Origin: a virus
Lineage: Duplodnaviria > Caudoviricetes
Strand: one strand, 5' to 3'
Length of the DNA stretch: 61,597 nt
Virus record (IMG/VR): IMGVR_UViG_3300022743_000214
Coordinates: 1 to 61,597 of that record
Below are positions 7,307 to 30,620 of the stretch, piece after piece. The number at the start of each line of letters is the position of its first letter. The stretch's first letter is position 1. A program made the translations under genes and the position numbers. Below the pieces are notes generated by a model. The model did not search any database. It worked only from the letters and a program-made list of their open reading frames with translations, and was not told the origin of the DNA.

Positions 7307-7390
7307 TGGATCAAATAAACCGAGAAAATTTGTTATTTTTGACTGGACGCTTGGGATTGATGCCATGCCCCACTCTGGAGCGAAGGAACC

Positions 7391-8285: not shown

Positions 8286-8335
8286 CACTAAATATGCTAG
8301 AGTAGAACCCATGCCAACTTGATAGGGATAAACAC

Positions 8336-9238: not shown

Positions 9239-9318
9239 AAACAATACTTGATCGCCTTGCACATCCTGACATTGAAGTAGCAGAAACAACGAGCAAGAAC
9301 AATTTCCAGGAATAACTC

Positions 9319-12881: not shown

Positions 12882-12897
12882 ATGGAGGCAGAGCCCA

Positions 12898-13500: not shown

Positions 13501-13535
13501 TAGGCGGAATCCGACGCATTTCAAGGGTGAGAAAG

Positions 13536-16500: not shown

Positions 16501-16577
16501 TTAGGAATGTTGCGGCGAGCCACCTGATGCGTGCTGTGTACCAACAAATCCGAACATCCGGCAAGAACGGCGGGTGA
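13536..16577 (+). CDS. hsdR: Type I RM restriction/motor subunit
   Basis: PDVVLAVNG...LELKN nuclease motif, HSAGSGKS, DEAH, FTATP, TGFDQP, QTLSRLNR; start at ATG 13536 or GTG 13527. Confidence 0.95.
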   Translation: MHKEIDFENDIEHALISSGGYEKGDPNTYDPEAALFPADVVAFVQKTQPKIWTRLTQLDAAKAPAMLLDSLVKELAAKGALAILREGFKCVGKTVRLAYFAPNTGLDPASTERYDDNRLTIVRQVNTKSGAIPDVVLAVNGLPVATLELKNPMSATRWNVENAKHQYRFERDPKELLFAFKQRCLVHFAVDTELVFMTTKLEGKDTFFLPFNLGHDHGAGNPPAAGDVRTTYLWHKVLTRDSLMDILARFIHLDVEEKTVVTEKGIKRHRKESMIFPRYHQLDAVRALTDHAQAHGSGHNYLIQHSAGSGKSNSIAWLAHRLSSLHDANNEKIFHSVVVITDRRVLDQQLQDTIFQFEHKLGVVQKIDENTQQLAKALADGVPIIISTIQKFPFITQAIRTMEANGKGVAISTAGKRFAVIVDEAHSSQSGETAMELRKILNKDGIESAIAEQLLDMDDDALSEEAKKELLREQLKRAKQPNLSFFAFTATPKFKTLAVFNEPGPNGKAPFHHYSMRQAIEEGFIHDVLAHYTCYKRYYKLIQKVEADPEVPRRKAARALARFVEFHDYEIAQKVEVIVEHFRTHTRHKIGGRAKAMVVTGSREHAVRYKLGFDKYIKDKSYTDVKSLVAFSGEITLKEFADKKFTEVSMNNGIKESELPEKFNTEEYQVLLVAEKYQTGFDQPLLHSMYVDKRLSGIQAVQTLSRLNRTTRGKTDTFVLDFVNEPADIYTAFKPYYEATDKGDDTDPQQLNTLAHTLANWKIYTEAEVSAWCEIWFRNRLNPTGGEHKKLNGLLDLAIERFKKLGEEDQNLFKGQLVSFRNLYSFVSQIVPYQDSDHEKLYTYARFLLTKLPRTTDNRTVQVDDEVELKYYRLQKISEGAIDLKAGEADALEGPTDVGTGQADEDVQLSTLVGKLNDRFGTEFTPADQLFFDQVRETAVANEQLRQAVLANSIENFEPVFNKQLENLFIERMDGNEEIFVRLMNDEAFRNVAASHLMRAVYQQIRTSGKNGG

Positions 16578-17494
16578 CGAGATTGGTCACGATGAAATTA
16601 CTCGCAATTGATGGTGGTGGAATTCGCGGAATCTATGCTAGCCATGTCCTGGAGCGCATTCAGCAGGAATTCAATATTGCATTTCACAGTGAATTCGATC
16701 TGATTGCTGGCACGAGCACTGGTTCTATCATCGCCGCCGCGATTGCATTTGGCATTCCGATTTCAAAGGTTACAGAGCTTTATCGTGAAAAAGGGCCGAG
16801 TATCTTCAGACCGAAGAGGTGGACATTCGGCGGCACCGTTGCCCCTCGCTATTCGAGCGAGCCGCTGCGTGCGGCTTTGTTTTCTGTTTTTGAAGATGCA
16901 ACGCTCGCTGATGCACAAACAAGGCTTGTTATCCCTGCGACAGACATCGGCAATGGTGGCGTGCATGTTTTCAAGTCGGCATACGACGAGAAGTTTGTTC
17001 GCGACCGCAACGTGAAGGTCGTTGACGCTGTATTGGCTTCTTGCAGTGCGCCATCCTACTTCGCTCCATCGAGAGTGGGCCCGTATCAGTTGAGCGACGG
17101 CGGGCTATGGGCGAACAACCCTTCGTTGGTTGCAGTCACCGAAGCACTTACCCGCCTCGGGGCGGAGCGCTCCGCGATTCGGTTGTTATCTGTAGGAACG
17201 GGTATTGGCAAGAACTACTACCCGATCTCTAATGCGGATAAAAAATGGGGATTCCTGACTGGCTGGGGGATCTCCAAGTTCATTTCCATGCTCTTGAATC
17301 TCCAAGCGGCAACGGCCAGCAATGTCACACAGCTCATTTTGGACAAGCATCAGTCCGTGAGGGTGAATTTCGAATCAGATCTGCCTTTATCACTTGATGA
17401 TGTTGGCACCCTCGATGATTTGATAAGCCGAGCAGACAAGGACTTCACACATAACTCAGCGGCCATTCGGCAGTTACTTGGAGGGAATCAATGA
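16574..17494 (+). CDS. capV: Patatin-like phospholipase, CBASS effector (CapV/CapE-like)
   Basis: DGGGIRG, GTSTG nucleophile, SAPSYF, DGG motifs; directly upstream of a CD-NTase. Confidence 0.85.
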   Translation: MTRLVTMKLLAIDGGGIRGIYASHVLERIQQEFNIAFHSEFDLIAGTSTGSIIAAAIAFGIPISKVTELYREKGPSIFRPKRWTFGGTVAPRYSSEPLRAALFSVFEDATLADAQTRLVIPATDIGNGGVHVFKSAYDEKFVRDRNVKVVDAVLASCSAPSYFAPSRVGPYQLSDGGLWANNPSLVAVTEALTRLGAERSAIRLLSVGTGIGKNYYPISNADKKWGFLTGWGISKFISMLLNLQAATASNVTQLILDKHQSVRVNFESDLPLSLDDVGTLDDLISRADKDFTHNSAAIRQLLGGNQ

Positions 17495-18828
17495 AGCTGA
17501 CCGAACATTTCAATACGTTCTTGGTTGACGTTATCAATCTCAACCAGACGCGCATTGACACGCTGAAAGCGCGCGTGGATGCCATCGTTACCGCTGTCGA
17601 AAGCTTTGATGTTTTTTCTGACATTCTGATCGATACGACACCACAAGGGTCGTGGGCGCATCGCACCATCATCAAGCCGGCCGGAATCGCAGGATCGTTT
17701 GACGCGGATGTGGTTGCTTTTGTAGATCCTCACGAAGAATGGACTCCGGCAGATTACATCGACCATCTGTATGACCAGTTCAAGGCGCACGGCACTTATT
17801 CTGACAAGGTGTCGCGCAAGACGCGTTGCGTAACGATTCAGTATGCGGGGGAGTTCTCAATTGATGTAGTGCCGTGTATCCGCAGAGCCAGCATTTGGGA
17901 AACCACGGAATGGATTCTGAATCGTAAGGATGACGTCGAAGAGCAGGCAAATCCTGATGGATATACAGAGTGGTTCTCACAGAGAAACGGGTATGTTGGC
18001 AACAACCAGTTGATCAAGGTTGTTCGGATACTGAAGTACCTGCGCGATTTCAAACTGACATTTTCAGCCAAATCAATTCTGCTGACGACGTTGATTGGTG
18101 AACGCATCTCTTGGCTTGACGAGCTGGGGAATGAATTCTCAGATACGCCAACTGCGCTCCGGACAGTTATCAAGAGACTGGACGCATACCTGCAACAGAA
18201 CCCTGATATGCCAGAGATCGTAAACCCCAAGCTGCCGTCAGAGTCGTTCACAAGGCACTGGGATCAAGACAAGTACACCAACTTCCGAGCCTGTATCAAC
18301 CGCTACGCCGAATGGGTTGAAGATGCTTACGTTGAGACAGATCGTGAAGAGAGCATCGTTAAATGGCGAAGGATTTTTGGTGATGATTTTGCAAAGTCAG
18401 TTGTTCTCACCAAGGCTGCCAATCTGGTCGAAACGCAGATTGATGATGTATCTCATGTTACCCGGCCGCCATGGCCAGTCTTGCCAGCTGGACGAATTGA
18501 AATCACTGCGACACTACATTCTTCCAAGGAAGGAAATTTCCTAGGAACCTACCGCTCTGATGGACCTGCTTTGTCGCCGGACACTTGGCTTCACTTCAGT
18601 GCAAAGCACTCTTTCACAAATGGCATAGCGATTAAATGGCAAATCGTTAATACGGGCTGGGCGGCAAGGGCTGCGAGGTGCCTCAGGGGTGGATTCGATC
18701 ATTCTGGTTCAGAGATATGGGAGCACACACTTTACAGGGGAAAACACTGGGTCGAGTGTTTCGCTGTCGATTTGAAACGAGGCGTATGCCTTGCTCGAAG
18801 TGACCGCTTCTACGTCAACATTTCATAG
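17491..18828 (+). CDS. CD-NTase (SMODS nucleotidyltransferase) with C-terminal AGS-C-like domain
   Basis: QGSWAHRTIIKP...FDADVV, RCVTIQY, IDVVP; C-terminal WQIVNTG..RGG..EHTLYRGKHWVECF; ATGA overlap with the patatin gene. Confidence 0.85.
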   Translation: MKLTEHFNTFLVDVINLNQTRIDTLKARVDAIVTAVESFDVFSDILIDTTPQGSWAHRTIIKPAGIAGSFDADVVAFVDPHEEWTPADYIDHLYDQFKAHGTYSDKVSRKTRCVTIQYAGEFSIDVVPCIRRASIWETTEWILNRKDDVEEQANPDGYTEWFSQRNGYVGNNQLIKVVRILKYLRDFKLTFSAKSILLTTLIGERISWLDELGNEFSDTPTALRTVIKRLDAYLQQNPDMPEIVNPKLPSESFTRHWDQDKYTNFRACINRYAEWVEDAYVETDREESIVKWRRIFGDDFAKSVVLTKAANLVETQIDDVSHVTRPPWPVLPAGRIEITATLHSSKEGNFLGTYRSDGPALSPDTWLHFSAKHSFTNGIAIKWQIVNTGWAARAARCLRGGFDHSGSEIWEHTLYRGKHWVECFAVDLKRGVCLARSDRFYVNIS

Positions 18829-18842
18829 TCGGAGAATACGAT

Positions 18843-19790
18843 ATGGCATTGAATCTGGCGAAGGCCGTACTGGATTGTTTGAAGGTTCGCCCCGAGGAAA
18901 AGCTGACCGCAAGACAGATCGCCGAGTGGATTTTTAGCACGTACCCTTCAGAGTGCCAGGAGAAGAAGTCCAACAGTCAGGGGGGCTATATAAAGACCGA
19001 TAGCGACTTAGTACAGCAACTAGTTGCGGAAATTGGCTCCCGGCGTCCCAGTTTGCAGAAGCGACATCCTGAACTTAAGACGACCGAAGGTAGACCTCGC
19101 AAGTATTACTACACCGAAAAATCGGACATTGCCGAAGTTGCTGCGGCTGAGGACACGTCCGCTACTGCTGTGTTGGGCGCTGACAGCAAGACAATGAGTG
19201 AACACTCCTTGTATCCGCTGCTCTCGCTGTATCTGTGGGAAGAGTTTGGCGTCTATTCGAAGCGCATCGACGAAAAGCGCTCATCGAACAAGCGTGGGCC
19301 GAATGGCAACCGCTGGCTGTATCCGGACATTGTTGGGATGGAAGACTTGGGCGCGGAGTGGCACCAGGAGGTGCGGGACTGCGTGAATCAGTATTCCGAC
19401 AAGCGCACCAAGCTGTGGTCGTTCGAGGCAAAGTTACTGATCAACCGCTCGAACGTTCGGGAGTGTTTTTTCCAGGCGGTTTCCAATTCTTCGTGGGCAA
19501 ATTACGGTTATTTGGTCGCTGCAGAAATCGAAGGCCAGGACACTCTCAAGGAATTGCGTATGTTGTTCGCTGCTCATGGCATAGGCCTAATTAAGCTTGA
19601 TGCGGACAACCCAGCAGAAAGCCAGGTGTTGATTCCGGCTCGAGAGCGAGACGAGATCGATTGGGACATGGCCAATCGGCTGGCAACAGAGAACCGGGAT
19701 TTTATGGAGTACGTGAAACTCGTGAAACAGTTCTACCAGACTGGAGAGGCACGTCTGGCTGACTGGGATGTGCCTGAATTGAAGGAATGA
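18843..19790 (+). CDS. HrgA/COG2958-like protein (N-terminal wHTH plus PD-(D/E)XK-like domain)
   Basis: EHSLYP, NRWLYPDIVG, WSFEAK, FQAVSNSSWANYGYLVA. Confidence 0.8.
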   Translation: MALNLAKAVLDCLKVRPEEKLTARQIAEWIFSTYPSECQEKKSNSQGGYIKTDSDLVQQLVAEIGSRRPSLQKRHPELKTTEGRPRKYYYTEKSDIAEVAAAEDTSATAVLGADSKTMSEHSLYPLLSLYLWEEFGVYSKRIDEKRSSNKRGPNGNRWLYPDIVGMEDLGAEWHQEVRDCVNQYSDKRTKLWSFEAKLLINRSNVRECFFQAVSNSSWANYGYLVAAEIEGQDTLKELRMLFAAHGIGLIKLDADNPAESQVLIPARERDEIDWDMANRLATENRDFMEYVKLVKQFYQTGEARLADWDVPELKE

Positions 19791-20187: not shown

Positions 20188-20691
20188 TTAATTTCTAAGA
20201 TCCATCGAGTGCATGGTTTGAGCCCACTTCTGAAACTCTAAAAGCATCAATGTGGTCTGAGCGGCATCGTCGGCTAGCCGCTCACAGCTCATCCCCCTCT
20301 CATCTCCGGAGGCAGCAAGTAAAGGGTCGGCGGAGGATTGAGCAATTGCTTCGGTATTTGTGGGAACGTCGGACAGCGCACTTCCACTGGGTGCGGTGTT
20401 GTTGCACACCCCATCAAAAATAGTGTCAGGCAGGCGAGAAGCCAATAGTTTGGATTTTTTAAGAAAGTCATTTGAAATTTCCTGATTGATTTGGGCTTGT
20501 CCAAGCTTTACGTCTTCAATGTGCTGCTCCTGCTTGGCAACCACTTGCTCTACCCTGCTCTTTTCAGCATTCCAGGCAGATTGAACTCGTACTTCACCTA
20601 ACTGAACGCCAATGATCATTGCCATCGCCAGCAATAGGCAGTCCATCAAGATTGACCAATTGGCCAACAGAAATCGACTCAGCCAACTCAT
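20188..20691 (-). CDS. Inner-membrane spanin (Rz-like)
   Basis: N-terminal TM helix plus coiled coil, follows the endolysin, contains an embedded lipoprotein ORF. Confidence 0.75.
   Translation of the reverse strand: MSWLSRFLLANWSILMDCLLLAMAMIIGVQLGEVRVQSAWNAEKSRVEQVVAKQEQHIEDVKLGQAQINQEISNDFLKKSKLLASRLPDTIFDGVCNNTAPSGSALSDVPTNTEAIAQSSADPLLAASGDERGMSCERLADDAAQTTLMLLEFQKWAQTMHSMDLRN
20289..20471 (-). CDS. Outer-membrane lipoprotein spanin (Rz1-like), embedded in Rz
   Basis: From ATG 20471: MTFLKNPNYWLLACLTLFLMGC lipobox followed by a Pro-rich mature region; different frame within Rz. Confidence 0.75.
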   Translation of the reverse strand: MTFLKNPNYWLLACLTLFLMGCATTPHPVEVRCPTFPQIPKQLLNPPPTLYLLPPEMRGG

Positions 20692-21152
20692 TGCATACCT
20701 CCGTCAAGTGAAGTCAATTTGTGAGCAGTAATTACGGAGATGACTTTGTTCGCATAGCCAGGATCAGTGGCGTAACCAGCTTTGGCTAAAGCTTTGACAA
20801 AAGCCTCTGCAGTCAAGCAACTGAAGCAAGGCAGGTACCGTGAGTTTTGCTTCAAAAAGGTAGCGTGGTCGTCAATACTGTCTTTCCAACTAGGGTACTT
20901 TCGCCACTTAGCCGAGACAACAACCCATTCCCCCTTAATGAATTCCTTGGTATCAAGAGTCAATATCTCCCCTCGCCAGAGATTGTCTGCCTTGATACCA
21001 AATAAGTTATTTCCAGCCTTTGCCAGGCCTGACTCTCCCCAGCCTGACTCCAATGCAGCCTGCGCAATCGTGATGCTTGCGAATACGCCTGTACGTTTAG
21101 CTTCGGCTTGGGCCAAGGGCGAAACTTGAGTAATAAATGCCTGAGGATTCAT
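20688..21152 (-). CDS. Endolysin, GH73 glucosaminidase/FlgJ-like
   Basis: AQAALESGWG, NNLFGIKA, GYATDPGY. Confidence 0.9.
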   Translation of the reverse strand: MNPQAFITQVSPLAQAEAKRTGVFASITIAQAALESGWGESGLAKAGNNLFGIKADNLWRGEILTLDTKEFIKGEWVVVSAKWRKYPSWKDSIDDHATFLKQNSRYLPCFSCLTAEAFVKALAKAGYATDPGYANKVISVITAHKLTSLDGGMQ

Positions 21153-21532
21153 AGCAACCCCTTCACATCTTTTGCAACTTCATCAATGGACTCATCGCGA
21201 CGAGCCGAGATGAAATTGAAGAGCCAGCGCACGACTGCCCAACCGGGCAGACCGCAGGCAAAGATCACCCCGCCCATGGCGTACAGACCAATCGTTGAAA
21301 ACGCCCAGTGATGAAGCTGGAAATATTCGATGGTGATAGCACCACCACAAATACTGGACACGACGGTGCTGATCAGACCAACTGTCCATTCACGGACATT
21401 GCGCGGTGGCGTCATGAGCATGACGACCACGGCGGCAAGGGTTGCACCCCCAGCGGCAGCACCCGCTGTTCCACCGATCGCCTTGTAGGCTGCGGCGGCA
21501 CCTGCCACGCTTGAAGTTGTAGGTTCTGGCAT
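21149..21532 (-). CDS. Putative holin
   Basis: Start at MPEPTTSS (GGAGA RBS); about 3 hydrophobic segments, charged C-terminus; overlaps the endolysin start. Confidence 0.75.
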   Translation of the reverse strand: MPEPTTSSVAGAAAAYKAIGGTAGAAAGGATLAAVVVMLMTPPRNVREWTVGLISTVVSSICGGAITIEYFQLHHWAFSTIGLYAMGGVIFACGLPGWAVVRWLFNFISARRDESIDEVAKDVKGLL

Positions 21533-21544
21533 TGATTTCTCCCC

Positions 21545-21572
21545 AAAAAACCGCCAGGGCAAACCTTGGCGG
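21545..21572 (-). terminator. Intrinsic terminator between the radical SAM gene and the holin
   Basis: Minus strand CCGCCAAGG-TTTG-CCCTGGCGG followed by TTTTTT. Confidence 0.65.
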
Positions 21573-21595: not shown

Positions 21596-22966
21596 TTAGG
21601 CAGAGACGACTGGAATTGGAAATGGCTTAACCGATTGGCTTTGCATCGCAGCGGGTTCTTGTTCAAACCCAAAGATGTCCTTGCGATCAAGTCGTAATTC
21701 ACCATCGATGTGAACAGGGATCAGTCCCGTTAGAAACTCAATGCCAGCTGCGAAGATGGGCAGCGCATCAGAATAGGCGTTATCACACGACGCATCCCAA
21801 AGCGGGCCTTCCAGAAACATGCAGGCCCCTTTGCAGATCTGCACGACAGGGCACTTCGGACACTCTGTTCTTTTGGACCAGTGGGTTGATGTCGTGAGCC
21901 CTACATCGCCCAACTGGGATGTATTACCAATGCAATGGCTCTGACCATTAGGTGCCGAGGCAGATGCGCTGACGTTTTGGCAGGTCAACACATTGCCTGT
22001 GAGATCCACGGCGATGGAATCAGATTGATCCATACCGCACTTTTGGCTCAGACTAGACGCTGGGCGTTTGGTTCGCAATGAGTTCACAAAAGACATCATG
22101 CGGTCGCGGACACTCGAAATACGATCTGCCCGACCATGCCGAATGTCCTGAAACGCCTGACGGCGATAAGCGTGAAACTCCTCAGGCTTCAGTGACAAAG
22201 CAAGGCCACCAGCGTCATAGGCATCTACGAATCCGCCCTCTCCTATCATCACCTTTGGGTCTCCTGTGATTTCAGTGAAGAAGGCCTGAATGGCTGCTCG
22301 AGACTGGTTGGATCGATTGACCATGGCGTTGAAGCTGAAACGCCCCTGAGGGGCGAGTCGCTGGTACAGATCAAGAATTGCTTGTCGGGCTTCAGGGTCT
22401 TGCAATGGATCAGGCCCGCGAACGTGTTGTCCAGGTCCATCGTGTGAAACGCTGACCGTAAAGCCCAGTTCATCCAACCACTGATTCAGCTCCAAGTTGA
22501 GCAAAGAACCATTGGTGATCACTGAGAACCTGGCCAATGGGTACTTCGCCCTCAAGGCCTCAGCCAAGGGTTTCAGGGTCTTGATGTAGACCAATGGCTC
22601 ACCACCCCAAAACTCAATGGCCTCAGTCGGGGTCAATACCCAGCTATCCAGAGTGTTCAGAAAACCTTTCACGTCCTCAGGATTGGTTTCAGAGGCCCGG
22701 GCCACGAAGCGCTGAGAGCAATATTCACAAGCGTAGTTGCAGGACAGGCCAAGAGAGATTTTGAGGATGCGAGGGGATGTTTTCCCAAGCGGAGTGTCTT
22801 TCGAGACCACGGGTGCGATGCCACCGTCACTTTGCACTACGGTATCCACAGTACGAATCACGGAATTGCCCTGAATGTCAGTCAGGGTCGATTCCATGTT
22901 GTCGTAAATCAGCGGCATGACAGAGTTTTTTCTTGGGTCTGCTGCGGCAATCAGAAATTTAGCCAT
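21596..22966 (-). CDS. Radical SAM enzyme with SPASM domain (peptide/protein maturase-like)
   Basis: CNYACEYC (CxxxCxxC), FWGGEP, ITNG, SVSHDG; C-terminal CG...GNVLTCQ...CPKCPVVQICKGAC...C. Confidence 0.9.
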   Translation of the reverse strand: MAKFLIAAADPRKNSVMPLIYDNMESTLTDIQGNSVIRTVDTVVQSDGGIAPVVSKDTPLGKTSPRILKISLGLSCNYACEYCSQRFVARASETNPEDVKGFLNTLDSWVLTPTEAIEFWGGEPLVYIKTLKPLAEALRAKYPLARFSVITNGSLLNLELNQWLDELGFTVSVSHDGPGQHVRGPDPLQDPEARQAILDLYQRLAPQGRFSFNAMVNRSNQSRAAIQAFFTEITGDPKVMIGEGGFVDAYDAGGLALSLKPEEFHAYRRQAFQDIRHGRADRISSVRDRMMSFVNSLRTKRPASSLSQKCGMDQSDSIAVDLTGNVLTCQNVSASASAPNGQSHCIGNTSQLGDVGLTTSTHWSKRTECPKCPVVQICKGACMFLEGPLWDASCDNAYSDALPIFAAGIEFLTGLIPVHIDGELRLDRKDIFGFEQEPAAMQSQSVKPFPIPVVSA

Positions 22967-23576
22967 CGTGTCTTGCTACCTTGATGTTGAGTAATACCTG
23001 CATGAAGGGGATGTCTCCCATGTACGGCTTTTGGAAATGGACGGCCCTGGCATCGAAGGCCACCAGCAATCCCCTGTGGGGTTTGATCCAGAACTTGGCA
23101 TGGGTTTCCCATGGCATCAAGCATTTGCCAAACCCTGAGGAACGCCAGTCTGGATTGCAGATCGCGAATGCGTTGGGACCGTACTGGTTGACCTGCTTTT
23201 GCAGATCTCTGAGAGGATCCAGCTCAGCGCCGTTTGGGAAATACACAGCCTGCAGATGACATTCGTCTTCGTCAGAGTGCGGCATGATTTCCACACCAGC
23301 CGTTCGAACCACTTCGCGTCCTTGCAGATTCGTGATGCGCCCTTGCGGTCCGATGAATTCATGTTGAATCAACGTGAGCACGTTGGAGGCTAGTTGATTG
23401 GCGCTTGGGATCGTTCCATCGAAGATGTTGTGGGACTGACGATTCCAGATCTCACCGCCCTCAGTTTTCATGGAAGCATGGACAGCCAGTAAATCGTCGT
23501 AGAGCTTCTGGTCAAACGCTGGATCAGAGTCCAGTGACCAAAGCCCCACCGTGGTGGGGAACAGCTCTAACCTCAT
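22959..23576 (-). CDS. Putative 2OG-Fe(II) oxygenase
   Basis: ELFPT N-terminus, IMPHSD (HxD), AVYF, GLLVAFDA..VH..PY, terminal NIKV: double-stranded beta-helix pattern. Confidence 0.7.
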   Translation of the reverse strand: MRLELFPTTVGLWSLDSDPAFDQKLYDDLLAVHASMKTEGGEIWNRQSHNIFDGTIPSANQLASNVLTLIQHEFIGPQGRITNLQGREVVRTAGVEIMPHSDEDECHLQAVYFPNGAELDPLRDLQKQVNQYGPNAFAICNPDWRSSGFGKCLMPWETHAKFWIKPHRGLLVAFDARAVHFQKPYMGDIPFMQVLLNIKVARHDG

Positions 23577-24436
23577 AGAACACTCACCACCAGGTCATCC
23601 GTGCCCGAGAAGAACTTAAAACCCACCTTAATCTTGGACGTGTTGCCAGAGACCATGCCATCTGGACGGAAAGTGGTGGAACCAGCACCCTTCACAGTAG
23701 TGATGCGTCGGCCCACAAGATAGCCCGCAGTTGAGTCGAGGTAGATCTCAGCATCGCGGTCAGTGATGGGAGTTCCATCAGCAGTTTCAAGCTGAAAATT
23801 CACAGCCACTTCACCATTCGCGGCGATCTCAACCACCTTACTTCCCACAAAGCGAACCACAGGCAAAGTTTCATCGCGCACCAAAGCCAAGGTGATTGAT
23901 GGGATCACTTCAATGTTCTTTGATGCTATAACCAGCTCAGGACTGAAAACATTGAACCCTAGTGACCAATCCTCAAGGGGAGAGCTTTTGAATGGAACCA
24001 AGATCTGACCAATGGGGTGCGATTGCAGAACAGAGGCGTGATAAGCCTGAGCATCCATCTTGGAGGCAAGGGTTGCAACATAAAGATTGGGCGTCTGCGT
24101 GAAGAACCCATCCGGCGTTGTGTACCGCGCCATCACACCCACAGGGGCGTAGAGCATGAAGCTCGCATGATCGCCAAATTCTGGATGCTGTGTGAGCGTT
24201 TGAAGATCCAAAGTTCGCTGATACACAGGCTCACCCATGACCCCAAAGTCACCTCGCCATTCAGTGATCAATCCCTGATCAAAGTATTTCCCACCACTGG
24301 GGTGATCCTTGGTTGAGTCGCCAACAAACTCTCGTTGCATGATGGCTCTGACAGCAAATGCCAGAGTTGTATCGGCCAAGGTGACATCCAGCGCAAAGGG
24401 TGGGTTCTTATTGCCTAGGTAAAGTTTCATATTCAC
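23573..24436 (-). CDS. Hypothetical protein, beta-rich C-terminus (Ig-like?)
   Basis: 287-aa ORF with AGGAG RBS overlapping the tail-fibre stop; ATGA overlap with the oxygenase. Confidence 0.7.
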   Translation of the reverse strand: MNMKLYLGNKNPPFALDVTLADTTLAFAVRAIMQREFVGDSTKDHPSGGKYFDQGLITEWRGDFGVMGEPVYQRTLDLQTLTQHPEFGDHASFMLYAPVGVMARYTTPDGFFTQTPNLYVATLASKMDAQAYHASVLQSHPIGQILVPFKSSPLEDWSLGFNVFSPELVIASKNIEVIPSITLALVRDETLPVVRFVGSKVVEIAANGEVAVNFQLETADGTPITDRDAEIYLDSTAGYLVGRRITTVKGAGSTTFRPDGMVSGNTSKIKVGFKFFSGTDDLVVSVL

Positions 24437-24439
24437 TCC

Positions 24440-25366
24440 TTAGCAGCAGTTGCAATCGCAATTGCAGTTGTACCGAGTGCCATAAGCACCCAAACGAAGC
24501 GTTCCACCTTGGTCAAACAGCGTGACCAGGTTGTAGTAGGCGTAAGGAGCTTGATCGCCGCAGTTGTAGCAGTTATCCGTGATCTGACAGTTGGGCGCAC
24601 CCTGCCAACCCGAAGTAGGGTTGTTGTTGACGCGAACGCAGTTGCTCACCACGTTGAAGAAGTAATCCTGGAGCCACCCGTAGTTACATGTCCACAACGA
24701 CCCTGAGTTGTTCATGTACATGTCCCAGCTGCCATCGGATCGGAGAAACCCCATGAGACCACCGTTGTGGTGCAGGTAACGGGTTCCCCAGTCCTGATCA
24801 ACCATGTCGATGTAGTTCGCCGTGCTGGCAATCTGCAACCTTGGAACGGTCAACGTGCCCGACATGGTGTCGCCCGTCTTGGCGACGCGACTGGACAAGT
24901 CAATCGGAATGGATGAGTTGCCATTGGCATCAGGCCCTACCCCGTTCACCGAGCGAACAAATGCAGTGGAATCAATGCCATCTAACTTGTCAGCGTCTGC
25001 CGCCTTCGCTGTTATCCCCAAATACGCGCTGTTGTGGTTGTGACCAATCGCTGCATACGCTGAGTCGTGGTTGTGGCCCGACAGCGCAAAGCCAGAAGAA
25101 GCGATGCCACCCAGCAAATCAGAGTTTGGAGCCTTGCTGACCGTGCCAGACAAATCAATGACCATCTTCCACGTGGCAGGACTCACAACGGTCAGGACAT
25201 AGAGCTTTTGCTCGTCTGTCTTGAAACAAGGCATACCCAACTGAAGGTTGACCGTTGGGAACGATGTGCCGCTGTTGAGCGACATAGCAGTCTTGTCGTT
25301 GTTCAGGATCTGAGACAACGAATCCGACAGCGTGGTCGAAGATTGAATTTCGGTGTAGTTCTGCAC
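24440..25366 (-). CDS. Tail fibre protein with Asn-Cys-rich C-terminal tip
   Basis: Tail-fibre motifs GHNHDSAY/GHNHNSAY, ADADKLDGIDS, VRSVNG, RVAKTGDTMSGTL; ends RYNCNCDCNCC. Confidence 0.8.
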   Translation of the reverse strand: MQNYTEIQSSTTLSDSLSQILNNDKTAMSLNSGTSFPTVNLQLGMPCFKTDEQKLYVLTVVSPATWKMVIDLSGTVSKAPNSDLLGGIASSGFALSGHNHDSAYAAIGHNHNSAYLGITAKAADADKLDGIDSTAFVRSVNGVGPDANGNSSIPIDLSSRVAKTGDTMSGTLTVPRLQIASTANYIDMVDQDWGTRYLHHNGGLMGFLRSDGSWDMYMNNSGSLWTCNYGWLQDYFFNVVSNCVRVNNNPTSGWQGAPNCQITDNCYNCGDQAPYAYYNLVTLFDQGGTLRLGAYGTRYNCNCDCNCC

Positions 25367-25377: not shown

Positions 25378-26568
25378 TTAATATCCTTGTGCAACCCAAG
25401 AAATCAGCCCCGTCATCCGGGTGCCTGATGTGTTTTCAAGAACTGCTGTGAATCCCGTGGTGCTGACAGAGCCAAGAATCCGTGGCACTGCAACTGAAGT
25501 GCCGCCTTTAAAAGTCATCGTGACTTCAGGAGACACCCTGAACAACCGGGCGAAAGACACACTCACGCCATTAGCGGCATTGCTGATGGAGGCGGTTCCT
25601 CGGTCGAAGATGTCTGGCACATCCACCGTGACCCTGAGCCCATCGATGTAGCCGCGATCGGCATTGCTTGAAGTCAGGATGGCTCTGAACAGCGCCCTTT
25701 GGTAGGTGTAGTCACCTTGGATGAAATCCCTGAAGCTGGTGTACCCGGGTGGGTGGCCAGCCTCAAAGATGTCCAGGAAATCCTGATCGGTGATCTCCGT
25801 GGTTGCGAACAAGATGTCACTCACAACCCCGTTGGCATGACGCCTGTACTGTTCGGCCAGAGCAAAAGCTTCACTGAGCTTTAAGGTTTGTGCACGCTTT
25901 AGGCCTTCAGCAAAACTGAACCCCTCAGCCAATGCCAGTTTGTAGGCAATCGTTCGCCCAAAGGCTTCAGCAAAACTCATCGCCTCGCTGATGCTTTTGA
26001 TCTGGCGTTTGGAGATTGCATCGTTTGTTGCAAACGATTCGGCAAACGGCTTGGTGTTGACCTTGGCCGCAACTTCGCCAAACGACAAACTCTCCGCCAC
26101 ACGCAAGATGTAAGCGATGAGGTCTGTGTAGGTTTCGGCGATCGAGATCGTTTCGAACTTCTTGAGAATGACGCTGCGCATCAATCCTTCAGAAATCTGA
26201 AACGACTCCATGACCGCTTTGATGTTCGCGTTGGAAATCTTCTCGCCAAAACTCATACTCTCCACGAATCGAATCGTGTAAGCGATCAGATCGGTGTAGG
26301 TCTCCAAAAACGAAAACACTTCAAACTTCTGAATAACCACCGAACGAGACGAGCCTTCAGCAAACACCATGTATTCGGTCAACGCCTTGATTCCCAGCTT
26401 CTGGCTCAGCTCAGCAAAGCTCAGATCGGTTGCAACGCTTAAGGCATAGACCGCAGGATAGGCTGTGGTCCAGTTCTTACCGGCAGCAGCACTTGACCAA
26501 TTGAACTTGGAGCCTGCCCAGTTGTAGTTCGTACCAGGCGTGCTTGTGACGTTGACAACCTCAGCCAT
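25378..26568 (-). CDS. Tail-associated repetitive protein
   Basis: About 18-20 aa periodic E-x-hydrophobic-x-F-x-E repeats, ETYTDLIAY twice; lies between gpJ and the fibre. Confidence 0.65.
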   Translation of the reverse strand: MAEVVNVTSTPGTNYNWAGSKFNWSSAAAGKNWTTAYPAVYALSVATDLSFAELSQKLGIKALTEYMVFAEGSSRSVVIQKFEVFSFLETYTDLIAYTIRFVESMSFGEKISNANIKAVMESFQISEGLMRSVILKKFETISIAETYTDLIAYILRVAESLSFGEVAAKVNTKPFAESFATNDAISKRQIKSISEAMSFAEAFGRTIAYKLALAEGFSFAEGLKRAQTLKLSEAFALAEQYRRHANGVVSDILFATTEITDQDFLDIFEAGHPPGYTSFRDFIQGDYTYQRALFRAILTSSNADRGYIDGLRVTVDVPDIFDRGTASISNAANGVSVSFARLFRVSPEVTMTFKGGTSVAVPRILGSVSTTGFTAVLENTSGTRMTGLISWVAQGY

Positions 26569-26572
26569 GGGC

Positions 26573-27019
26573 TTAGCTCATCGTGAAGGTAAACACTGCT
26601 GTCAAGCTGTCGTCTGACCCCTTGTTCACCACGGGGAAAACCACGCGGTCGAACATCGTGCCGCTAGAGGATGCATTGAACACACCCGCCTCGGTGATTG
26701 CCCCTGTAGCGTCTCCCGCAAGAAAGCTCGCTGTGAAGGTGAACACCTTGGTGCCTGCCGTGTGAGCGTAGGTGGCAGCATTGCGTTTGAGTTCGGTCAC
26801 CAACGCCGTTTGCGTGGATGCGGCAGCCGTAGAACCTGTGCCCACAGCAATCCAGCCCATCACACCCGGGCGTGCCGATGAGTTTCCAATGGCGTCGGCC
26901 ACAAAATCAAAGCCACCCCCGACGATGATGTTGTCCTTGTGGACCACCTCCACCTCCCCACTCGCTTTGGTGAGCAAGAGGGTGATGGCCCCTTTGATCT
27001 TCATGCCTTCTTCGATCAT
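26573..27019 (-). CDS. Small tail/baseplate-associated protein
   Basis: NIIV..G, IAVGTG, TALVTEL, ITEAGVFNA: pattern common in tail-fibre anchoring proteins. Confidence 0.65.
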   Translation of the reverse strand: MIEEGMKIKGAITLLLTKASGEVEVVHKDNIIVGGGFDFVADAIGNSSARPGVMGWIAVGTGSTAAASTQTALVTELKRNAATYAHTAGTKVFTFTASFLAGDATGAITEAGVFNASSSGTMFDRVVFPVVNKGSDDSLTAVFTFTMS

Positions 27020-27036
27020 GGATGTTTCTCCAAATT

Positions 27037-27069
27037 AAAAGGCGCTGCACCTATTAGGTACAACGCCTT
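27037..27069 (-). terminator. Hairpin/terminator after gpJ
   Basis: Minus strand AAGGCGTTGTACCT-AAT-AGGTGCAGCGCCTT (14-bp stem including two G-U pairs) running into a short T-tract. Confidence 0.55.
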
Positions 27070-27095
27070 GGTTGGTAAAAAAATGATTTGTGTTT

Positions 27096-30000
27096 CTAGT
27101 AAAGCTTCAGAGATGAATATCCACTTGCAGGTGGATAAGCACCCACGGCACTTTGCATATCAGTTCCCATCTTGGCGACAAAGAGTCTCCTCTCACTCGC
27201 TGTCTGGCAGACACCGATGCACACCCGGTCGTTCGCACTGATCGCATAGGGCACAACGATGCGGTTAAAGAGCGCATCTTCCAAGAAGAAAGCTCCAGCC
27301 ACGCTGTCGTATCCAACCAGCAAACTCACAGACGCACCGGTGGCAGTCCAGATCACACAAGTGGTGACTTGTGCTGGTACGTACCAAAAGCTCGCATGGA
27401 AAATTCCCGGAATGCTCACTCCCCAGGACACCTTGGTGGTGTCTTTGACCAACACCCCACTGCCATATCGGCCATTGCCATAGCTCACGCCTGTGGCTTC
27501 ACCAGCACTTGGACTGCCGTAACCGCTCAGGTCACCATTCAACCTCAAGCCGTAGATTTCTCCCGCTTGCAAAGTGTCCTCGCGGGCCATCTGAAACCGT
27601 GCATCAATGCTTTTGAGAGCACCGTCATAGGTCCATTGCCTCTTGGCAGCAAGGTCGCCCCAGTTGTAGTTGGCACTTCCCCAGGTCTCTCGGTCATCCA
27701 GCGTTGCACCAATGCTGGCCAACAAGGTGTTCTGCGCTCGGTAGCTTGTGGGGAGCATCACATCAAAGAGGTACTCCGACTGGGCAACCCCACTGTCCAT
27801 CCGTAGAACATTCAACCCATTGACCGACTCCACTGAAGCGAAGTGCTTGATGCCCGGAAAATTCGTAGCCTGTGAATCCACCGTCACCAGTAAATTGGCG
27901 TTTTGCGGTTGTGCAACCACCGTGGATACGAAGGTCGCATCATCCGAATAGATGCCTGGTGAAGCAATGGCTTTGATCCAGAAGTTGCGCTCACCATCAA
28001 AGCCTGATGGCAAGGTGTAACTACTGGACTTAACTTCCGCGATGAAGATTGAGGTGTCCCAAGCGGTGCCCTCACGCAGCTCATAGGCCACGACCTCAGG
28101 TTCAGGGTTTGGCAACCACCGAAACTCCAGTCGATTCGCCGACTGCACCACATCAAACTGACGCACCGCACTTGGAGCCAGGAGCACCAGCTGAAACGTG
28201 GTGACGTTGGTGCTGTACTTGCCCGAGGTGTCAAAGGCGCGGATGTAATAGTTGTACTGCCCTGACGCGCTCTGGTCATGCACGAGCTGCGTGCCCGCAG
28301 TTTGCGCAACCAAATCTGCACTGTCCCAACCACTGCCAACCCGAACCTCATAGCCCGACAGATCTGCATCGGTGTTAGCAGTCCAACTCAGAAGCAAGTC
28401 CGTCGTGCGGCGCATCACCACAAAACCCTGCACATCGTCCGGAGGCATCAACTTGCCAAGAATCGTCTGATTCAGCGTTGTTGCATTGCCTTGCTTGCCA
28501 GAGACTCCTACCGCCCTGACTGTGAAAACATAGTCGCCGGTATCGGCATTGCGGATTTCAAGGTAGTTGTTTGAGACCCTTGGAAGGTTGACGGTGTTGC
28601 CGCCATTGACGCGGTAGCTCACCTGGTATTCCAGCGCACCGAACACCTGCTCCCAAGCCACCTGGATCAAGACAAGCGCCTGATCCTTGACTCGGTACAG
28701 ACTCTCATTGACCACCAGCCCCGTGGGAGCCTGAGGTGCAGTAGACAAGACCGTGATGCTTCGACTTTGCAGCGCAAGGCCTTCTTCGATCGCATCGAAC
28801 TTGCTCGGGTTGTGAGCCAGTGCGGTGACCTCATGCACACCGGGCTCACTCTCCGTGACCTGTACCACCCTAAAGAGTTGAGGCTGGACCTGCGTTGAAG
28901 CCAGCACCCAGATAGCTCCACTTTGGGGTGTCTCTGTGAACGGACTCGTGACCCCTAAGGTTCTGCCGTTGTTGGAGCCAACTTGCCGCTCCTGCACAGT
29001 ACCGCTGGGCGTGATGACAGAGATCGTCCAATTGCCTGCAGGCAAGTCCTGGTCGAGCGTCACACTCACGGTGGTGGCAGCGGCAACGCGACCACCCAAG
29101 CGCATACCGCCTCGCCCCGGGTCGGCCACCTTGATCACATCGCCTGGTCGAACCACGACCCCTTCGAGCCCTGTTCGGAAAGTGGCGATTTCAGATTCGG
29201 ACTGCTCCGAATACAGCAACCACTTGCCAACACGGTTAGCTTGACCCCGGGAAGTACAGCCAAAGGCCACCACATCGGCTTGCACGACGCCATAGCGGGC
29301 AATGCCTGCCATGTCTTCGACGTACTCTACCTTCTGACGGTAAAAGTCATCCGGGTCACACCAAGTGACAAGTGCCACGGTGTGACGAGTTTTGGCAGAA
29401 GACCCTTGGTACGAGAAGTCTCCCCCTACCACGTTGGCTGCTGTGAACTGATACACCGGATCCTGCGGTGCATCTTGTGTCACCGTGATCGAGCCACCCG
29501 CCCAGTAAGCCAGCCCCCTAAAAATGGAGGCCATGTCTTGCACGACTTTGTAGGCTTGTTCACGAGTTTGCAAATACAGGTTGCAGGTAAAACGTGGCTC
29601 ATAGCCACCGTGGCCATCCGGCACTAATTCATCACAGTATTTGGCGGCCCGGTACAAAGCCCACTTGTCCACCTGTGAGGCTGCAATGTAGGAACCCAGG
29701 CCATACCGTGAATTGGTCACCAGGTCATAGAAACACCAGGCGGGGTTGTCTGACCATGCAATCTTGAACAAGCCATCCCACACCCCGACATAGCTTCGAG
29801 TCTCAGGGTAGTAGTTCGATGGGATCTGAACTTTAAGAAGTTTGAGGTCATAGCTTCGCTTGGGGATGCTTGAGAACTGAGAAGCATCGACCCTGAGCGC
29901 CATCAAAGCACTGTTGGGGTATCTCAACTTACTCTCAATGACCTCTGTGTAGGACTCCAGAAAAGTCTTGTTTTGTACATTGACCTCGGTGGAGTCTGCC

Positions 30001-30620
30001 GTGATACGACGCAGCCGAATATCCCATGGGCCATTACCAGCCAAAGGGATGTAGTAGCTGCGCTGGTACTTGGTCGTGGTCTTTCCCGAGACAGTGTCAT
30101 TGACCACTTGGACAAATCCCGCACCGTTGGACTGAAGGTCAATGGCAAAGTTCACCGAAGTTCCGGTGAGGTCCCCAGTGGAAGGGTTTTGGTAGGAAAG
30201 AACAGGAATGCTAACCTTGACCCGAACGGCATCCACATCCGAATCGCTGATTGTGCGAACCACCGCCTGCGAGTACTTGGCCTCGACCCCGACCGAGATT
30301 TCGTTCTCAACAGATGAAAACCCCGGCACATAGCTTTGTTGCTGTGTACCGTTACGGGTTTCAAGCGTGACGCCTGTGAAGTTGAAGCTTCCATCGGCAT
30401 TGAGGATGGGCGTTTCATCCAGGTACACCGAGGCCAGGCCATTGGGCAATCCTTCGATTTCACCTTCGCACACGAGATCGACCACCCGTGCATAGGCTTT
30501 GGAACGCAAACTGTCGGGGGATTCTTGCGCCACTCGGGAGCTTGAACCTCCGCTTTTGCCGCCACCACCTGCGCCGCTGATCAACTTTGAATCAACTGTG
30601 GAATTTGAATCTGCACTCAT
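27096..30620 (-). CDS. Tip attachment/host-specificity protein (lambda gpJ-like)
   Basis: DSLRS, EGEIEG, WSDNPAWCFYD, EPRFTCN, GCTSRGQANR.GKW, PGDVIKVAD; FN3-like repeats in the C-terminal half. Confidence 0.92.
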   Translation of the reverse strand: MSADSNSTVDSKLISGAGGGGKSGGSSSRVAQESPDSLRSKAYARVVDLVCEGEIEGLPNGLASVYLDETPILNADGSFNFTGVTLETRNGTQQQSYVPGFSSVENEISVGVEAKYSQAVVRTISDSDVDAVRVKVSIPVLSYQNPSTGDLTGTSVNFAIDLQSNGAGFVQVVNDTVSGKTTTKYQRSYYIPLAGNGPWDIRLRRITADSTEVNVQNKTFLESYTEVIESKLRYPNSALMALRVDASQFSSIPKRSYDLKLLKVQIPSNYYPETRSYVGVWDGLFKIAWSDNPAWCFYDLVTNSRYGLGSYIAASQVDKWALYRAAKYCDELVPDGHGGYEPRFTCNLYLQTREQAYKVVQDMASIFRGLAYWAGGSITVTQDAPQDPVYQFTAANVVGGDFSYQGSSAKTRHTVALVTWCDPDDFYRQKVEYVEDMAGIARYGVVQADVVAFGCTSRGQANRVGKWLLYSEQSESEIATFRTGLEGVVVRPGDVIKVADPGRGGMRLGGRVAAATTVSVTLDQDLPAGNWTISVITPSGTVQERQVGSNNGRTLGVTSPFTETPQSGAIWVLASTQVQPQLFRVVQVTESEPGVHEVTALAHNPSKFDAIEEGLALQSRSITVLSTAPQAPTGLVVNESLYRVKDQALVLIQVAWEQVFGALEYQVSYRVNGGNTVNLPRVSNNYLEIRNADTGDYVFTVRAVGVSGKQGNATTLNQTILGKLMPPDDVQGFVVMRRTTDLLLSWTANTDADLSGYEVRVGSGWDSADLVAQTAGTQLVHDQSASGQYNYYIRAFDTSGKYSTNVTTFQLVLLAPSAVRQFDVVQSANRLEFRWLPNPEPEVVAYELREGTAWDTSIFIAEVKSSSYTLPSGFDGERNFWIKAIASPGIYSDDATFVSTVVAQPQNANLLVTVDSQATNFPGIKHFASVESVNGLNVLRMDSGVAQSEYLFDVMLPTSYRAQNTLLASIGATLDDRETWGSANYNWGDLAAKRQWTYDGALKSIDARFQMAREDTLQAGEIYGLRLNGDLSGYGSPSAGEATGVSYGNGRYGSGVLVKDTTKVSWGVSIPGIFHASFWYVPAQVTTCVIWTATGASVSLLVGYDSVAGAFFLEDALFNRIVVPYAISANDRVCIGVCQTASERRLFVAKMGTDMQSAVGAYPPASGYSSLKLY

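What the first reader, a model, noticed from the sequence alone, without database searches (positions are those of the whole stretch)
21596..25366. RiPP-like maturation cassette coupled to a phage tail fibre: Cys-rich fibre, unknown protein, 2OG-Fe(II) oxygenase and radical SAM/SPASM
Seen: four genes sit in the tail module between gpJ and the holin, joined by a 3-nt gap, a 4-nt overlap and an 8-nt overlap. The fibre ends in a 10-Cys segment, the enzyme has CxxxCxxC plus a SPASM Cys array, and no separate short precursor ORF is evident. Established: rSAM/SPASM enzymes form Cys-to-carbon thioether links in sacti/ranthipeptides (including to Asp/Asn) or convert Cys to formylglycine (anSME), and 2OG oxygenases can hydroxylate Asp/Asn. 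Inference: the phage enzymatically crosslinks or decorates its own receptor-binding fibre tip, in the slot usually taken by a fibre chaperone. I know of no characterised example.
Basis: partly seen in the sequence, partly recalled or inferred. Interest (0 to 1): 0.93.

Follow-up and report, generated by a model that had tools for sequence, protein, structure and literature searches.

The report
Radical-SAM maturation cassette for tail fibres
A phage tail-fibre protein that ends in a run of alternating asparagine and cysteine is almost always encoded next to a radical SAM enzyme, which suggests that many phages chemically staple the tip of the fibre they use to recognise their host.

Summary
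On the minus strand, a 308-aa fibre ending in NCNCDCNCC is followed by a 287-aa Ig-like protein, a 205-aa 2OG-Fe(II) oxygenase and a 456-aa radical SAM/SPASM enzyme. They are tightly packed between the tail genes and the lysis genes.

The link is conserved in both directions. Of 55 related rSAM loci with at least 4 kb upstream, 54 encode an upstream protein ending in an (N/D/A-C)n run. The background is 3 of 3,559 ORFs. Of 70 IMG/VR occurrences of the NCNCDCNC pattern, 58 have an rSAM homologue beside them. Of the 12 without, 11 have under 2.3 kb of stored sequence on the downstream side. Carriers range from 92 to 686 aa and include clear tail fibres. In some carriers the Cys run is followed by a Hint or a Peptidase_S74 domain, both self-cleaving families.

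The best reading is that the rSAM modifies the fibre's Cys tail, most likely by thioether cross-links. The chemistry is inferred, not shown. The 2OG enzyme and the 287-aa protein are frequent but optional. More distant bacterial rSAM relatives and phage RP12 have no such carrier nearby. My searches found no paper describing this system.

The parts
24440..25366 (-). Tail fibre (308 aa), the proposed substrate. It has HxH repeats in the shaft and a conserved Cys-rich C-terminal domain of about 85 aa.
   Evidence: ORF. phrog_8443 tail fibre, E 5e-4. The N-terminus aligns with Achromobacter phage JWF gp028. Longer carriers of the same C-terminal domain hit phrog_5073 tail fibre at E 5e-81 to 7e-105.
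24443..24469 (-). C-terminal run N300-C308 (NCNCDCNCC), the proposed modification site.
   Evidence: Cys positions. N302, C303 and C305 are invariant in A1. C85, C87 and C89 of the 90-aa tail alignment A7 are invariant. In 56 unique tails the x positions are N 182, D 57, A 20, T 6, C 4, Q 4.
23573..24436 (-). Accessory protein of 287 aa (probably 285 aa from the ATG at 24430). It has a novel N-terminal domain and a C-terminal Ig-like domain. It is a likely fibre-associated partner, with no known function.
   Evidence: No Pfam, PHROG or NCBIfam hit. AF2 model pLDDT 91. Only the Ig-like part matches PDB. The whole-length matches at the top of the BFVD list are all uncharacterised phage proteins. 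Present in 49 of 92 cassettes.
22959..23576 (-). 2OG-Fe(II) oxygenase of 205 aa, an accessory tailoring enzyme.
   Evidence: H100, H180 and Y185 are invariant, with an H-x-D/E motif, in A5. 13 of 23 family members hit PF13759. AF2 model pLDDT 88. Foldseek top hits are 3bvc, P. putida prolyl 4-hydroxylase 4j25 and PHD2, TM about 0.6.
21596..22966 (-). Radical SAM/SPASM enzyme of 456 aa, the proposed fibre maturase.
   Evidence: PF04055 and TIGR04085 above cut-off; phrog_1802 E 1.7e-59. Ten invariant Cys in 28 homologues. Best full-length PDB match is anSME 4k36/4k37; N-terminal-half matches are 8vpo and CteB 5wgg.
25378..30620 (-). Upstream tail genes for context: gpJ-like 27096-30620, a 148-aa fibre-like protein 26573-27019 and a 396-aa protein 25378-26568.
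   Evidence: ORFs. phrog_5417 and phrog_4176 for the 148-aa protein. The same gene order occurs in most related loci.
20188..21562 (-). Downstream lysis genes for context: holin-like 21149-21562, glucosaminidase endolysin 20688-21152 and a spanin-like ORF 20188-20691.
   Evidence: PF01832 E 9e-40; phrog_1024; endolysin PHROGs.

Best explanation
The cassette is a maturation module for a phage tail fibre. The fibre's own C-terminal tail, a run of alternating Asn/Asp and Cys, is the substrate of the adjacent radical SAM/SPASM enzyme.

By analogy with SPASM enzymes that act on Cys-rich peptides, the enzyme most likely makes thioether bonds from Cys sulfur to a carbon of neighbouring Asn or Asp. 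A run of (N-C)n is a ladder of overlapping N-x-x-C units. The bonds could form within one chain or between the three chains of the fibre. Either way the result would be a covalently stapled tip that does not depend on redox state and is made in the cytoplasm before release.

The 2OG oxygenase would add hydroxyl groups to the same domain. The 285-aa Ig-like protein would be a fibre-bound partner, either a presenter/chaperone or a distal adhesin. Both are optional extras.

What is shown: the genes, the motifs and the two-way conserved linkage. What is inferred: that the fibre is the substrate (about 0.8), that the chemistry is thioether (about 0.5 given that), and that the oxygenase acts on the fibre (about 0.5).
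For: Forward test. The rSAM profile finds 578 relatives in IMG/VR. The best 80 of these, plus 21 loci, give 73 unique loci, of which 55 have at least 4 kb upstream. Of those 55, 52 carry an upstream same-strand ORF matching NC.C.C, and 2 more (L067, L069) carry variant Cys runs. That makes 54 of 55. The background is 3 of 3,559 ORFs.

Reverse test. The DNA pattern for NCNCDCNC gives 70 IMG/VR hits. An rSAM homologue lies on the same strand in 58. Of the 12 without, 11 have under 2.3 kb stored downstream, and 5 of those sit on contigs where the rSAM was seen in the forward set. Only L117 is a clean exception. The 58 include rSAMs at under 30% identity (12) and at 30-45% identity (10).

Modularity. 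Carriers are 92-686 aa and fall in at least 8 BLAST clusters, yet share the tail. The cassette sits in different tail-module positions and in siphovirus (JWF), Ackermannviridae (RSP15) and Dit/Tal-type gut-phage contexts. Some loci have 2-3 carriers or 2-3 rSAMs.

Position of the Cys run. In 61 of 70 cases at most 11 residues follow the pattern. In other carriers it is followed by a Hint domain starting exactly at the next Cys (PF05203, E 3e-12, JWF) or by Peptidase_S74. Both families are known for self-cleavage. I infer that the Cys run ends up at the mature C-terminus.

Enzyme type. The rSAM has the CX3CX2C motif plus seven conserved SPASM Cys.

Residues at the x positions. They are N, then D, then A, with some Q. 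The beta-thioether enzyme NxxcB uses Asn as its native acceptor and tolerates Ala, Gln and Asp (passages of PMC9389541).

There is no room for a separate precursor, and no other Cys-run ORF in the record.
Against: No chemistry has been observed.

The rSAM reaches no curated cut-off for any characterised maturase: PapB 55 against 340 bits, QhpD 44.6 against 453, SCIFF 22.1 against 425, anSME 33.9 against 349. Its best PDB matches cover only the N-terminal half (8vpo, CteB) or are to anSME, which is not a cross-linker. No RiPP recognition element was detected.

Some relatives of the rSAM lack a carrier. RP12's three rSAMs have none nearby. Of 7 hits in 301 bacterial genomes, the 3 most distant (E 1e-85 to 1e-125) sit in non-phage contexts with no Cys-run ORF within about 6 kb.

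The forward set is the closest 80 of 578 relatives, and many are near-duplicates from related prophages, so the 54 are not independent events.

A Cys run in a trimer could instead bind metal or form disulfides. SPASM enzymes usually act on unfolded peptides, not on assembled fibres.
Confidence: 0.6

Rival explanations
1. The coupling is real but the chemistry is different. The rSAM acts on the fibre tail without making thioethers. Possibilities are oxidation of Cys to formylglycine as anSME does, epimerisation, C-C or ether links on Asn/Asp, or preparation of the tail for a metal-thiolate column analogous to the HxH-metal sites of T4 fibres.
For: The only full-length PDB match is anSME (4k36/4k37, query 73-398, E 6e-12). 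The best N-terminal-half hit, 8vpo, is cited in a paper on rSAM cyclopropyl synthases (search listing only). This shows that sequence similarity does not fix the chemistry. The fibre shaft already uses HxH repeats. Alternating Cys in a beta-strand would face one side, as metal ligands do (inference).
Against: The anSME family score is 33.9 against a cut-off of 349. The sulfatase-type motif that I recall as the anSME target is absent from the tail. Metal loading alone would not need a radical enzyme. The x residues (N, D, A, Q) match known thioether acceptors.
Confidence: 0.2
2. The Cys run is purely structural (disulfide knot or metal site) and the rSAM has another target, such as a small molecule, DNA or a host protein. 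On this view it sits at the end of the tail module only because that is a common insertion site for accessory genes.
For: Distant rSAM relatives exist without carriers. The rSAM matches viperin-like and other non-peptide families about as weakly as it matches the peptide maturases. The tail/lysis junction is a known hot spot for accessory genes (recalled).
Against: The linkage holds in both directions and across unrelated phage backbones, with variable gene order. It holds both upstream and downstream of the rSAM, and at rSAM identities from 23% to 83%. The motif is almost never found without the enzyme: one clean exception in 70.
Confidence: 0.1
3. The fibre acts as a giant leader. The modified Cys-rich tail is cut off and released as a free RiPP, for example an antimicrobial or a signal.
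For: The gut-phage carriers of 111-133 aa with many CQxCQG repeats look like Cys-rich RiPP precursors.
Against: No protease or exporter gene was seen in the cassettes. Where cleavage domains are present (Hint, S74), they lie C-terminal to the Cys run and would leave it attached to the fibre. Long carriers are clear tail fibres.
Confidence: 0.05

Closest known systems
NxxcB/NxxcA beta-thioether RiPP system of streptococci
   Same: A radical SAM/SPASM-type enzyme links Cys sulfur to the beta-carbon of Asn three residues away. The acceptor may also be Ala, Gln or Asp (passages of PMC9389541). The (N-C)n run is a ladder of N-x-x-C units with the same set of x residues.
   Different: The substrate here is the C-terminus of a structural protein of 92-686 aa, not a short leader-core peptide. 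No family model for NxxcB was available to test. No sequence kinship beyond the rSAM core is shown.
Ranthipeptide and SCIFF maturases (PapB, CteB)
   Same: These are SPASM enzymes acting on Cys-rich substrates. PapB is the best NCBIfam hit (E 7e-15), and CteB 5wgg is among the best PDB hits.
   Different: Scores are far below the family cut-offs (55 against 340; 22.1 against 425). Only the N-terminal rSAM core aligns. No RRE was detected.
QhpD, the maturase of quinohemoprotein amine dehydrogenase
   Same: This is an rSAM/SPASM enzyme that, as I recall, makes Cys-to-Asp/Glu thioethers inside a protein subunit rather than a free peptide. It is a precedent for a protein substrate. The NCBIfam hit TIGR03906 has E 7.5e-12.
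   Different: The score is 44.6 against a cut-off of 453. The substrate and the biology are different.
Anaerobic sulfatase-maturating enzyme (anSME)
   Same: It is the only solved structure that aligns over nearly the whole enzyme. JWF gp030 was once annotated with this name.
   Different: The TIGR03942 score is 33.9 against a cut-off of 349.45. There is no sulfatase, and no sulfatase-type target motif, in the cassette.
Self-cleaving C-terminal domains of tail fibres and spikes (Peptidase_S74 intramolecular chaperone; Hint/BIL domains)
   Same: Some carriers have these domains directly after the Cys run. In this window the maturation genes occupy the slot after the fibre gene where assembly factors usually sit.
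   Different: Those domains act on their own, without a separate enzyme. Here separate redox enzymes are encoded, and the window's fibre has no such domain.
Predicted hydroxylation of tail-collar proteins, and the cyanophage dioxygenase/halogenase clusters (Iyer et al. 2010, PMC2938197)
   Same: 2OG dioxygenases encoded beside phage-fibre-like proteins were proposed to modify them. Some marine loci here also carry Trp-halogenase and desaturase-like genes (passages).
   Different: That work, in the passages I read, describes no radical SAM enzyme paired with a Cys-run fibre. It read the cyanophage clusters as small-molecule pathways.

Membership tests
Radical SAM superfamily | CX3CX2C motif for the SAM-binding 4Fe-4S cluster, and a match to the family model | tested here: met
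   C76, C80 and C83 are invariant in 28 homologues. PF04055 scores 35.4 bits against a cut-off of 29.5.
SPASM subfamily | C-terminal seven-Cys array for auxiliary clusters, and a match to TIGR04085 | tested here: met
   C310, C329, C369, C372, C378, C382 and C394 are invariant. TIGR04085 scores 29.3 against a cut-off of 27.
PapB ranthipeptide maturase (NF047865) | Score at or above the curated cut-off of 340 | tested here: not met
   55 bits; only residues 73-179 align.
anSME (TIGR03942) | Score at or above 349.45, and a sulfatase substrate | tested here: not met
   33.9 bits. No sulfatase gene was seen in the cassette.
SCIFF (TIGR03974) and QhpD (TIGR03906) maturases | Score at or above the curated cut-offs of 425 and 453 | tested here: not met
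   22.1 and 44.6 bits.
RiPP pathway in the strict sense | Short precursor with leader and core, a recognition element, and a protease or exporter | tested here: not met
   There is no short ORF and no intergenic room for one. The substrate candidate is a 308-aa fibre. No RRE, protease or transporter family was hit.
RiPP-like thioether cross-linking (what it works like) | A covalent Cys S-C bond in the product | not testable with these tools
   Needs mass spectrometry or NMR. The structure-based binding job gave no verdict (see Tried and rejected).
2OG-Fe(II) oxygenase (PF13759 type) | Double-stranded beta-helix fold with an H-x-D/E...H iron triad | tested here: met
   H100 with D102, and H180, are conserved in A5. 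The AF2 model matches 3bvc, 4j25 and PHD2 at TM about 0.6. The window protein itself has no Pfam hit, but 13 of 23 aligned relatives hit PF13759.
Phage tail fibre | Homology to known fibres, position in the tail module, and presence in virions | tested here: inconclusive
   Direct hits are weak: phrog_8443 E 5e-4 and T4 gp34 E 0.024. The position after gpJ and the homology to JWF gp028 fit. Longer carriers hit fibre PHROGs at E below 1e-80. Virion presence was not testable.

The most novel reading that the evidence does not exclude
Many phages, in soil, freshwater, marine and gut settings, use a dedicated radical SAM enzyme to weld the tip of a tail fibre. Often 2OG oxygenases, extra rSAMs, halogenase-like or desaturase-like enzymes are encoded alongside. 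The (Asn-Cys)n tail would become a ladder of thioether rings or inter-chain staples. This would be RiPP-type chemistry applied to a virion structural protein. It would be the first class of enzyme-made covalent cross-links in a phage host-recognition organ, and it would recast the long-puzzling phage dioxygenase clusters as fibre-tailoring cassettes.
Probability: 0.4. Interest if true: 0.9.

Novelty: new variant of a known kind. Interest (0 to 1): 0.85.

Why it matters
Tail-fibre tips decide which bacteria a phage can attack and how well particles survive outside cells. An enzyme-made, redox-proof cross-link in that tip would be a new layer of phage biology. It would mean that expressing such fibres alone, for structural work or for engineered phages and tailocins, could give immature protein. 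It would also extend radical SAM peptide chemistry to large structural proteins and offer a compact natural tag-and-enzyme pair for protein stapling.

The family is large: 578 relatives in IMG/VR, and 503 clusters at 50% identity with E at or below 1e-30. The only names I saw were 'uncharacterized protein' and 'radical SAM protein'. Two cultured phages, JWF and RSP15, carry the cassette, so the question can be tested directly.

Tried and rejected
Binding prediction. I ran complex prediction on the rSAM (alignment A6) with residues 40-90 of the fibre tail (A7), three 4Fe-4S clusters and SAM. It returned 'no answer' with a score of 0.00, and the controls were not run. It is not used as evidence either way.

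Function of the 287-aa protein. Pfam, PHROGs and NCBIfam gave nothing. Foldseek against PDB matched only the Ig-like C-terminal domain. In BFVD the whole-length matches were all uncharacterised phage proteins. The ESM Atlas gave Big_1 leads below 0.9. I considered it a universal presenter protein and rejected that, because it is absent from the loci that carry the 232-aa family and from others.

Assigning chemistry from homology. This failed: no curated family cut-off was reached, and the PDB hits are to enzymes with different chemistries.

Literature. Searches found no description of an rSAM paired with a Cys-run tail fibre. One search was badly framed and uninformative. The nearest items are:
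- A pelagimyophage paper that notes rSAM cassettes in the host-recognition cluster (passages of PMC7029224).
- Iyer et al. 2010 (passages).
- PMC12801897 and PMC10783043, which were irrelevant.
Subscription journals and supplementary files were not searchable, so an existing description cannot be excluded.

Kin genomes cannot be drawn for a virus record.

Left out or limited:
- Achromobacter phage 2-1 and the fecal record MT838708 were not examined for carriers.
- The 498 or more IMG/VR relatives beyond the best 80 were not seen.
- The 2OG count of 50 of 92 is a lower bound, because my greedy ORF picking chose overlapping wrong-frame ORFs in some loci such as L010 and L012.

Full report
**What is in the window.** The record is a complete 61,597-bp IMG/VR virus record with linear ends and a CheckV estimate of 100%. 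On the minus strand the order is as follows:
- a gpJ-like protein (27096-30620);
- a 148-aa fibre-like protein (26573-27019);
- a 396-aa protein (25378-26568);
- the four genes of the finding;
- a holin-like gene (21149-21562), a glucosaminidase endolysin (20688-21152) and a spanin-like ORF.

The four genes are joined by a 3-nt gap, a 4-nt overlap and an 8-nt overlap. The second gene probably starts six bases further in, at the ATG at 24430. That start has AAGGAG 5 nt upstream and gives the 285 aa of its homologues.

The fibre has 11 Cys, ten of them in the last 82 residues, and ends in NCNCDCNCC. Its shaft carries two H-x-H repeats.

**The enzymes.** The 456-aa protein is a radical SAM/SPASM enzyme. 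It has C76-x3-C80-x2-C83 plus seven further Cys that are invariant in 28 homologues. PF04055 and TIGR04085 score above their cut-offs, and phrog_1802 matches at E 1.7e-59. It reaches no cut-off of any characterised maturase family. Its PDB matches are of two kinds:
- the N-terminal half matches 8vpo and CteB;
- the full length matches anSME.

The 205-aa protein gives no Pfam hit itself. It aligns with relatives of which 13 of 23 hit PF13759, and it keeps H100-x-D102 and H180. Its AF2 model (pLDDT 88) is a double-stranded beta-helix closest to 3bvc, a bacterial prolyl 4-hydroxylase and PHD2.

The 287-aa protein folds confidently (pLDDT 91) into a novel N-terminal domain plus an Ig-like domain. 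The only whole-length matches are uncharacterised phage proteins.

**Is the linkage conserved?**

*Named phages.* Achromobacter phage JWF (a siphovirus) has, after gpJ, a fibre whose N-terminus matches the window's fibre. That fibre contains NCNCDCNCNCSC followed at once by a Hint domain, then a 240-aa protein, then the rSAM. Ralstonia phage RSP15 (Ackermannviridae) has a side tail fibre ending in NCQCGN, a homologue of the 287-aa protein, a 288-aa protein and the rSAM.

*Forward test.* A profile of the rSAM finds 578 relatives in IMG/VR, of which the best 80 were returned. With the 21 loci these give 73 unique loci, and 55 of them have at least 4 kb upstream. Fifty-two carry an upstream same-strand ORF matching NC.C.C, and L067 and L069 carry variant runs. 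That makes 54 of 55. The exception, L007, is a truncated cassette. The background is 3 of 3,559 six-frame ORFs. These loci are the closest relatives and many are related prophages, so they are not 54 independent events.

*Reverse test.* The DNA pattern for NCNCDCNC occurs 70 times in IMG/VR. Fifty-eight occurrences have an rSAM homologue on the same strand in the stored stretch. Of the 12 without, 11 have under 2.3 kb stored downstream, and 5 of those lie on contigs where the rSAM is known from the forward set. Only L117 is a clean exception.

This set reaches rSAMs of under 30% identity (12) and of 30-45% identity (10). It includes gut-type siphophage tail-tip modules that carry:
- two or three small carriers full of CQxCQG repeats;
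- two or three rSAMs.

**What the carriers have in common.** They range from 92 to 686 aa and fall in at least eight BLAST clusters. The long ones are clear tail fibres (phrog_5073, E 5e-81 to 7e-105). The shared part is the C-terminal Cys-rich domain and the final run. In that run the residue before each Cys is N (182), D (57), A (20) and rarely T, C or Q.

In 61 of 70 cases at most 11 residues follow the pattern. In other carriers it is followed by a Hint domain or by Peptidase_S74, both self-cleaving families. I infer that the run is meant to be the mature C-terminus.

**What is optional.** Of 92 loci with both carrier and rSAM:
- 49 have the 285-aa family, including two distant clusters joined by hhalign;
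- at least 50 have one to three 2OG oxygenases of two Pfam types;
- 13 have an unrelated 232-aa protein;
- 11 have extra rSAMs.

Some marine loci add desaturase-like and Trp-halogenase genes. The invariable core is therefore the carrier plus the rSAM.

**Results against a universal rule.**
- The three rSAMs of jumbo phage RP12 (25% identity) have no Cys-run neighbour.
- Seven of 301 bacterial genomes of one order hold a relative at E at or below 1e-40. The four closest are prophage cassettes with carriers. The three most distant lie among ordinary chromosomal genes, with no Cys-run ORF within about 6 kb upstream or 1-7 kb downstream.

The coupling therefore describes the phage clades, not every member of the wider family. 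That wider family has 503 clusters at E at or below 1e-30.

**Mechanism.** The fibre tail is the only conserved partner of the enzyme, and there is no room for a separate precursor. SPASM enzymes are best known for acting on Cys-rich peptides. A run of (N-C)n is a ladder of N-x-x-C units. [quoted passage not shown] The same residues are found here.

I therefore favour thioether stapling of the fibre tip, within or between chains, with hydroxylation by the oxygenase as an optional extra. This step is inference. Other Cys or Asn chemistry is a live rival. A purely structural Cys run with an unrelated rSAM target is unlikely given the two-way linkage.

**Novelty.** Nine literature searches found no description of this pairing. 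A pelagimyophage study noted rSAM cassettes in the host-recognition cluster without interpreting them. Iyer et al. 2010 predicted hydroxylation of tail-collar proteins by neighbouring dioxygenases. No curated NCBIfam model fits the rSAM or the fibre, and the database names I saw are generic.

The kind of enzyme-substrate pair is known. Its use on a virion fibre, the (N-C)n tail and the self-cleaving variants are new. I rate it a new variant of a known kind, of high interest, and directly testable with JWF or by co-expression.

Noticed in passing
window 2027-19790 (+ strand): The left third of the record looks like a defence island. It holds an AAA_14/DUF4143 ATPase, a 1340-aa protein with no Pfam hit, a WYL-domain protein, a type I restriction-modification set (HsdM, HsdS, HsdR), then a patatin-like phospholipase overlapping a SMODS/AGS_C nucleotidyltransferase (CBASS-like pair), and a 315-aa unknown.
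   Followed up: partly
window 24430-24436: The longest-ORF start (GTG at 24436) of the 287-aa gene is probably wrong. An ATG two codons in has AAGGAG 5 nt upstream and gives the 285 aa typical of homologues. The ESM Atlas also holds the protein from that residue.
   Followed up: yes
L002 4793-6244 (JWF gp028); L018 5-1441; L066 3013-4434; L069 3090-4484: In these fibres the Cys run is internal and is followed directly by a Hint domain whose first Cys continues the run. This suggests self-cleavage that exposes the Cys run as the C-terminus.
   Followed up: partly
L115 3956-4633; also L131, L137: In these marine-type carriers the Cys run is followed by a Peptidase_S74 intramolecular-chaperone domain (22.5 bits, cut-off 22). 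L110 and L163 have a different 177-aa C-terminal domain with no Pfam hit.
   Followed up: partly
L105, L106, L116, L122, L161 and similar: These are gut-type siphophage tail-tip modules (tape measure, Dit-like, Tal-like). They have two or three small carriers (111-220 aa) rich in CQxCQG or CNxVQC repeats ending in NCNCDCNC..SDDS, and two or three divergent rSAM genes per locus.
   Followed up: partly
L110 3886-4605; L068 5136-5897; L150 3082-4233; L132 (recs 1907-3861): Extra tailoring-type genes sit beside some cassettes: fatty-acid-desaturase-like membrane proteins, a Trp halogenase (E 9e-97), and in L132 a protein with an SGGxDS motif plus a Cys/Met-metabolism PLP enzyme. This recalls the cyanophage dioxygenase/halogenase clusters of Iyer et al. 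2010.
   Followed up: partly
L007 whole locus; L023 5735-7008: In these two loci the fibre tip and the 285-aa gene are missing and the oxygenase is truncated, while the rSAM is intact. They may be decaying cassettes or assembly chimeras.
   Followed up: no
L003 (Ralstonia jumbo phage RP12) 2102-7212: Three radical SAM genes lie in a row beside virion structural genes, with no Cys-run protein nearby. Their substrate is unknown.
   Followed up: partly
L184, L185, L186 (genomes G044, G200, G145): Chromosomal relatives of the rSAM (E 1e-85 to 1e-125) lie in non-phage contexts. One sits after genes whose products look like flagellar hook-associated proteins. No Cys-run neighbour was found.
   Followed up: partly
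L072 5798-6001 and 12 other loci: A conserved 67-aa protein sits directly before the rSAM in 13 loci. It has no significant Pfam hit and may be a small partner of the enzyme.
   Followed up: no
genome G002 (holds L024): One Burkholderiaceae MAG holds four copies of the rSAM on four contigs, which suggests several related prophages in one genome.
   Followed up: no
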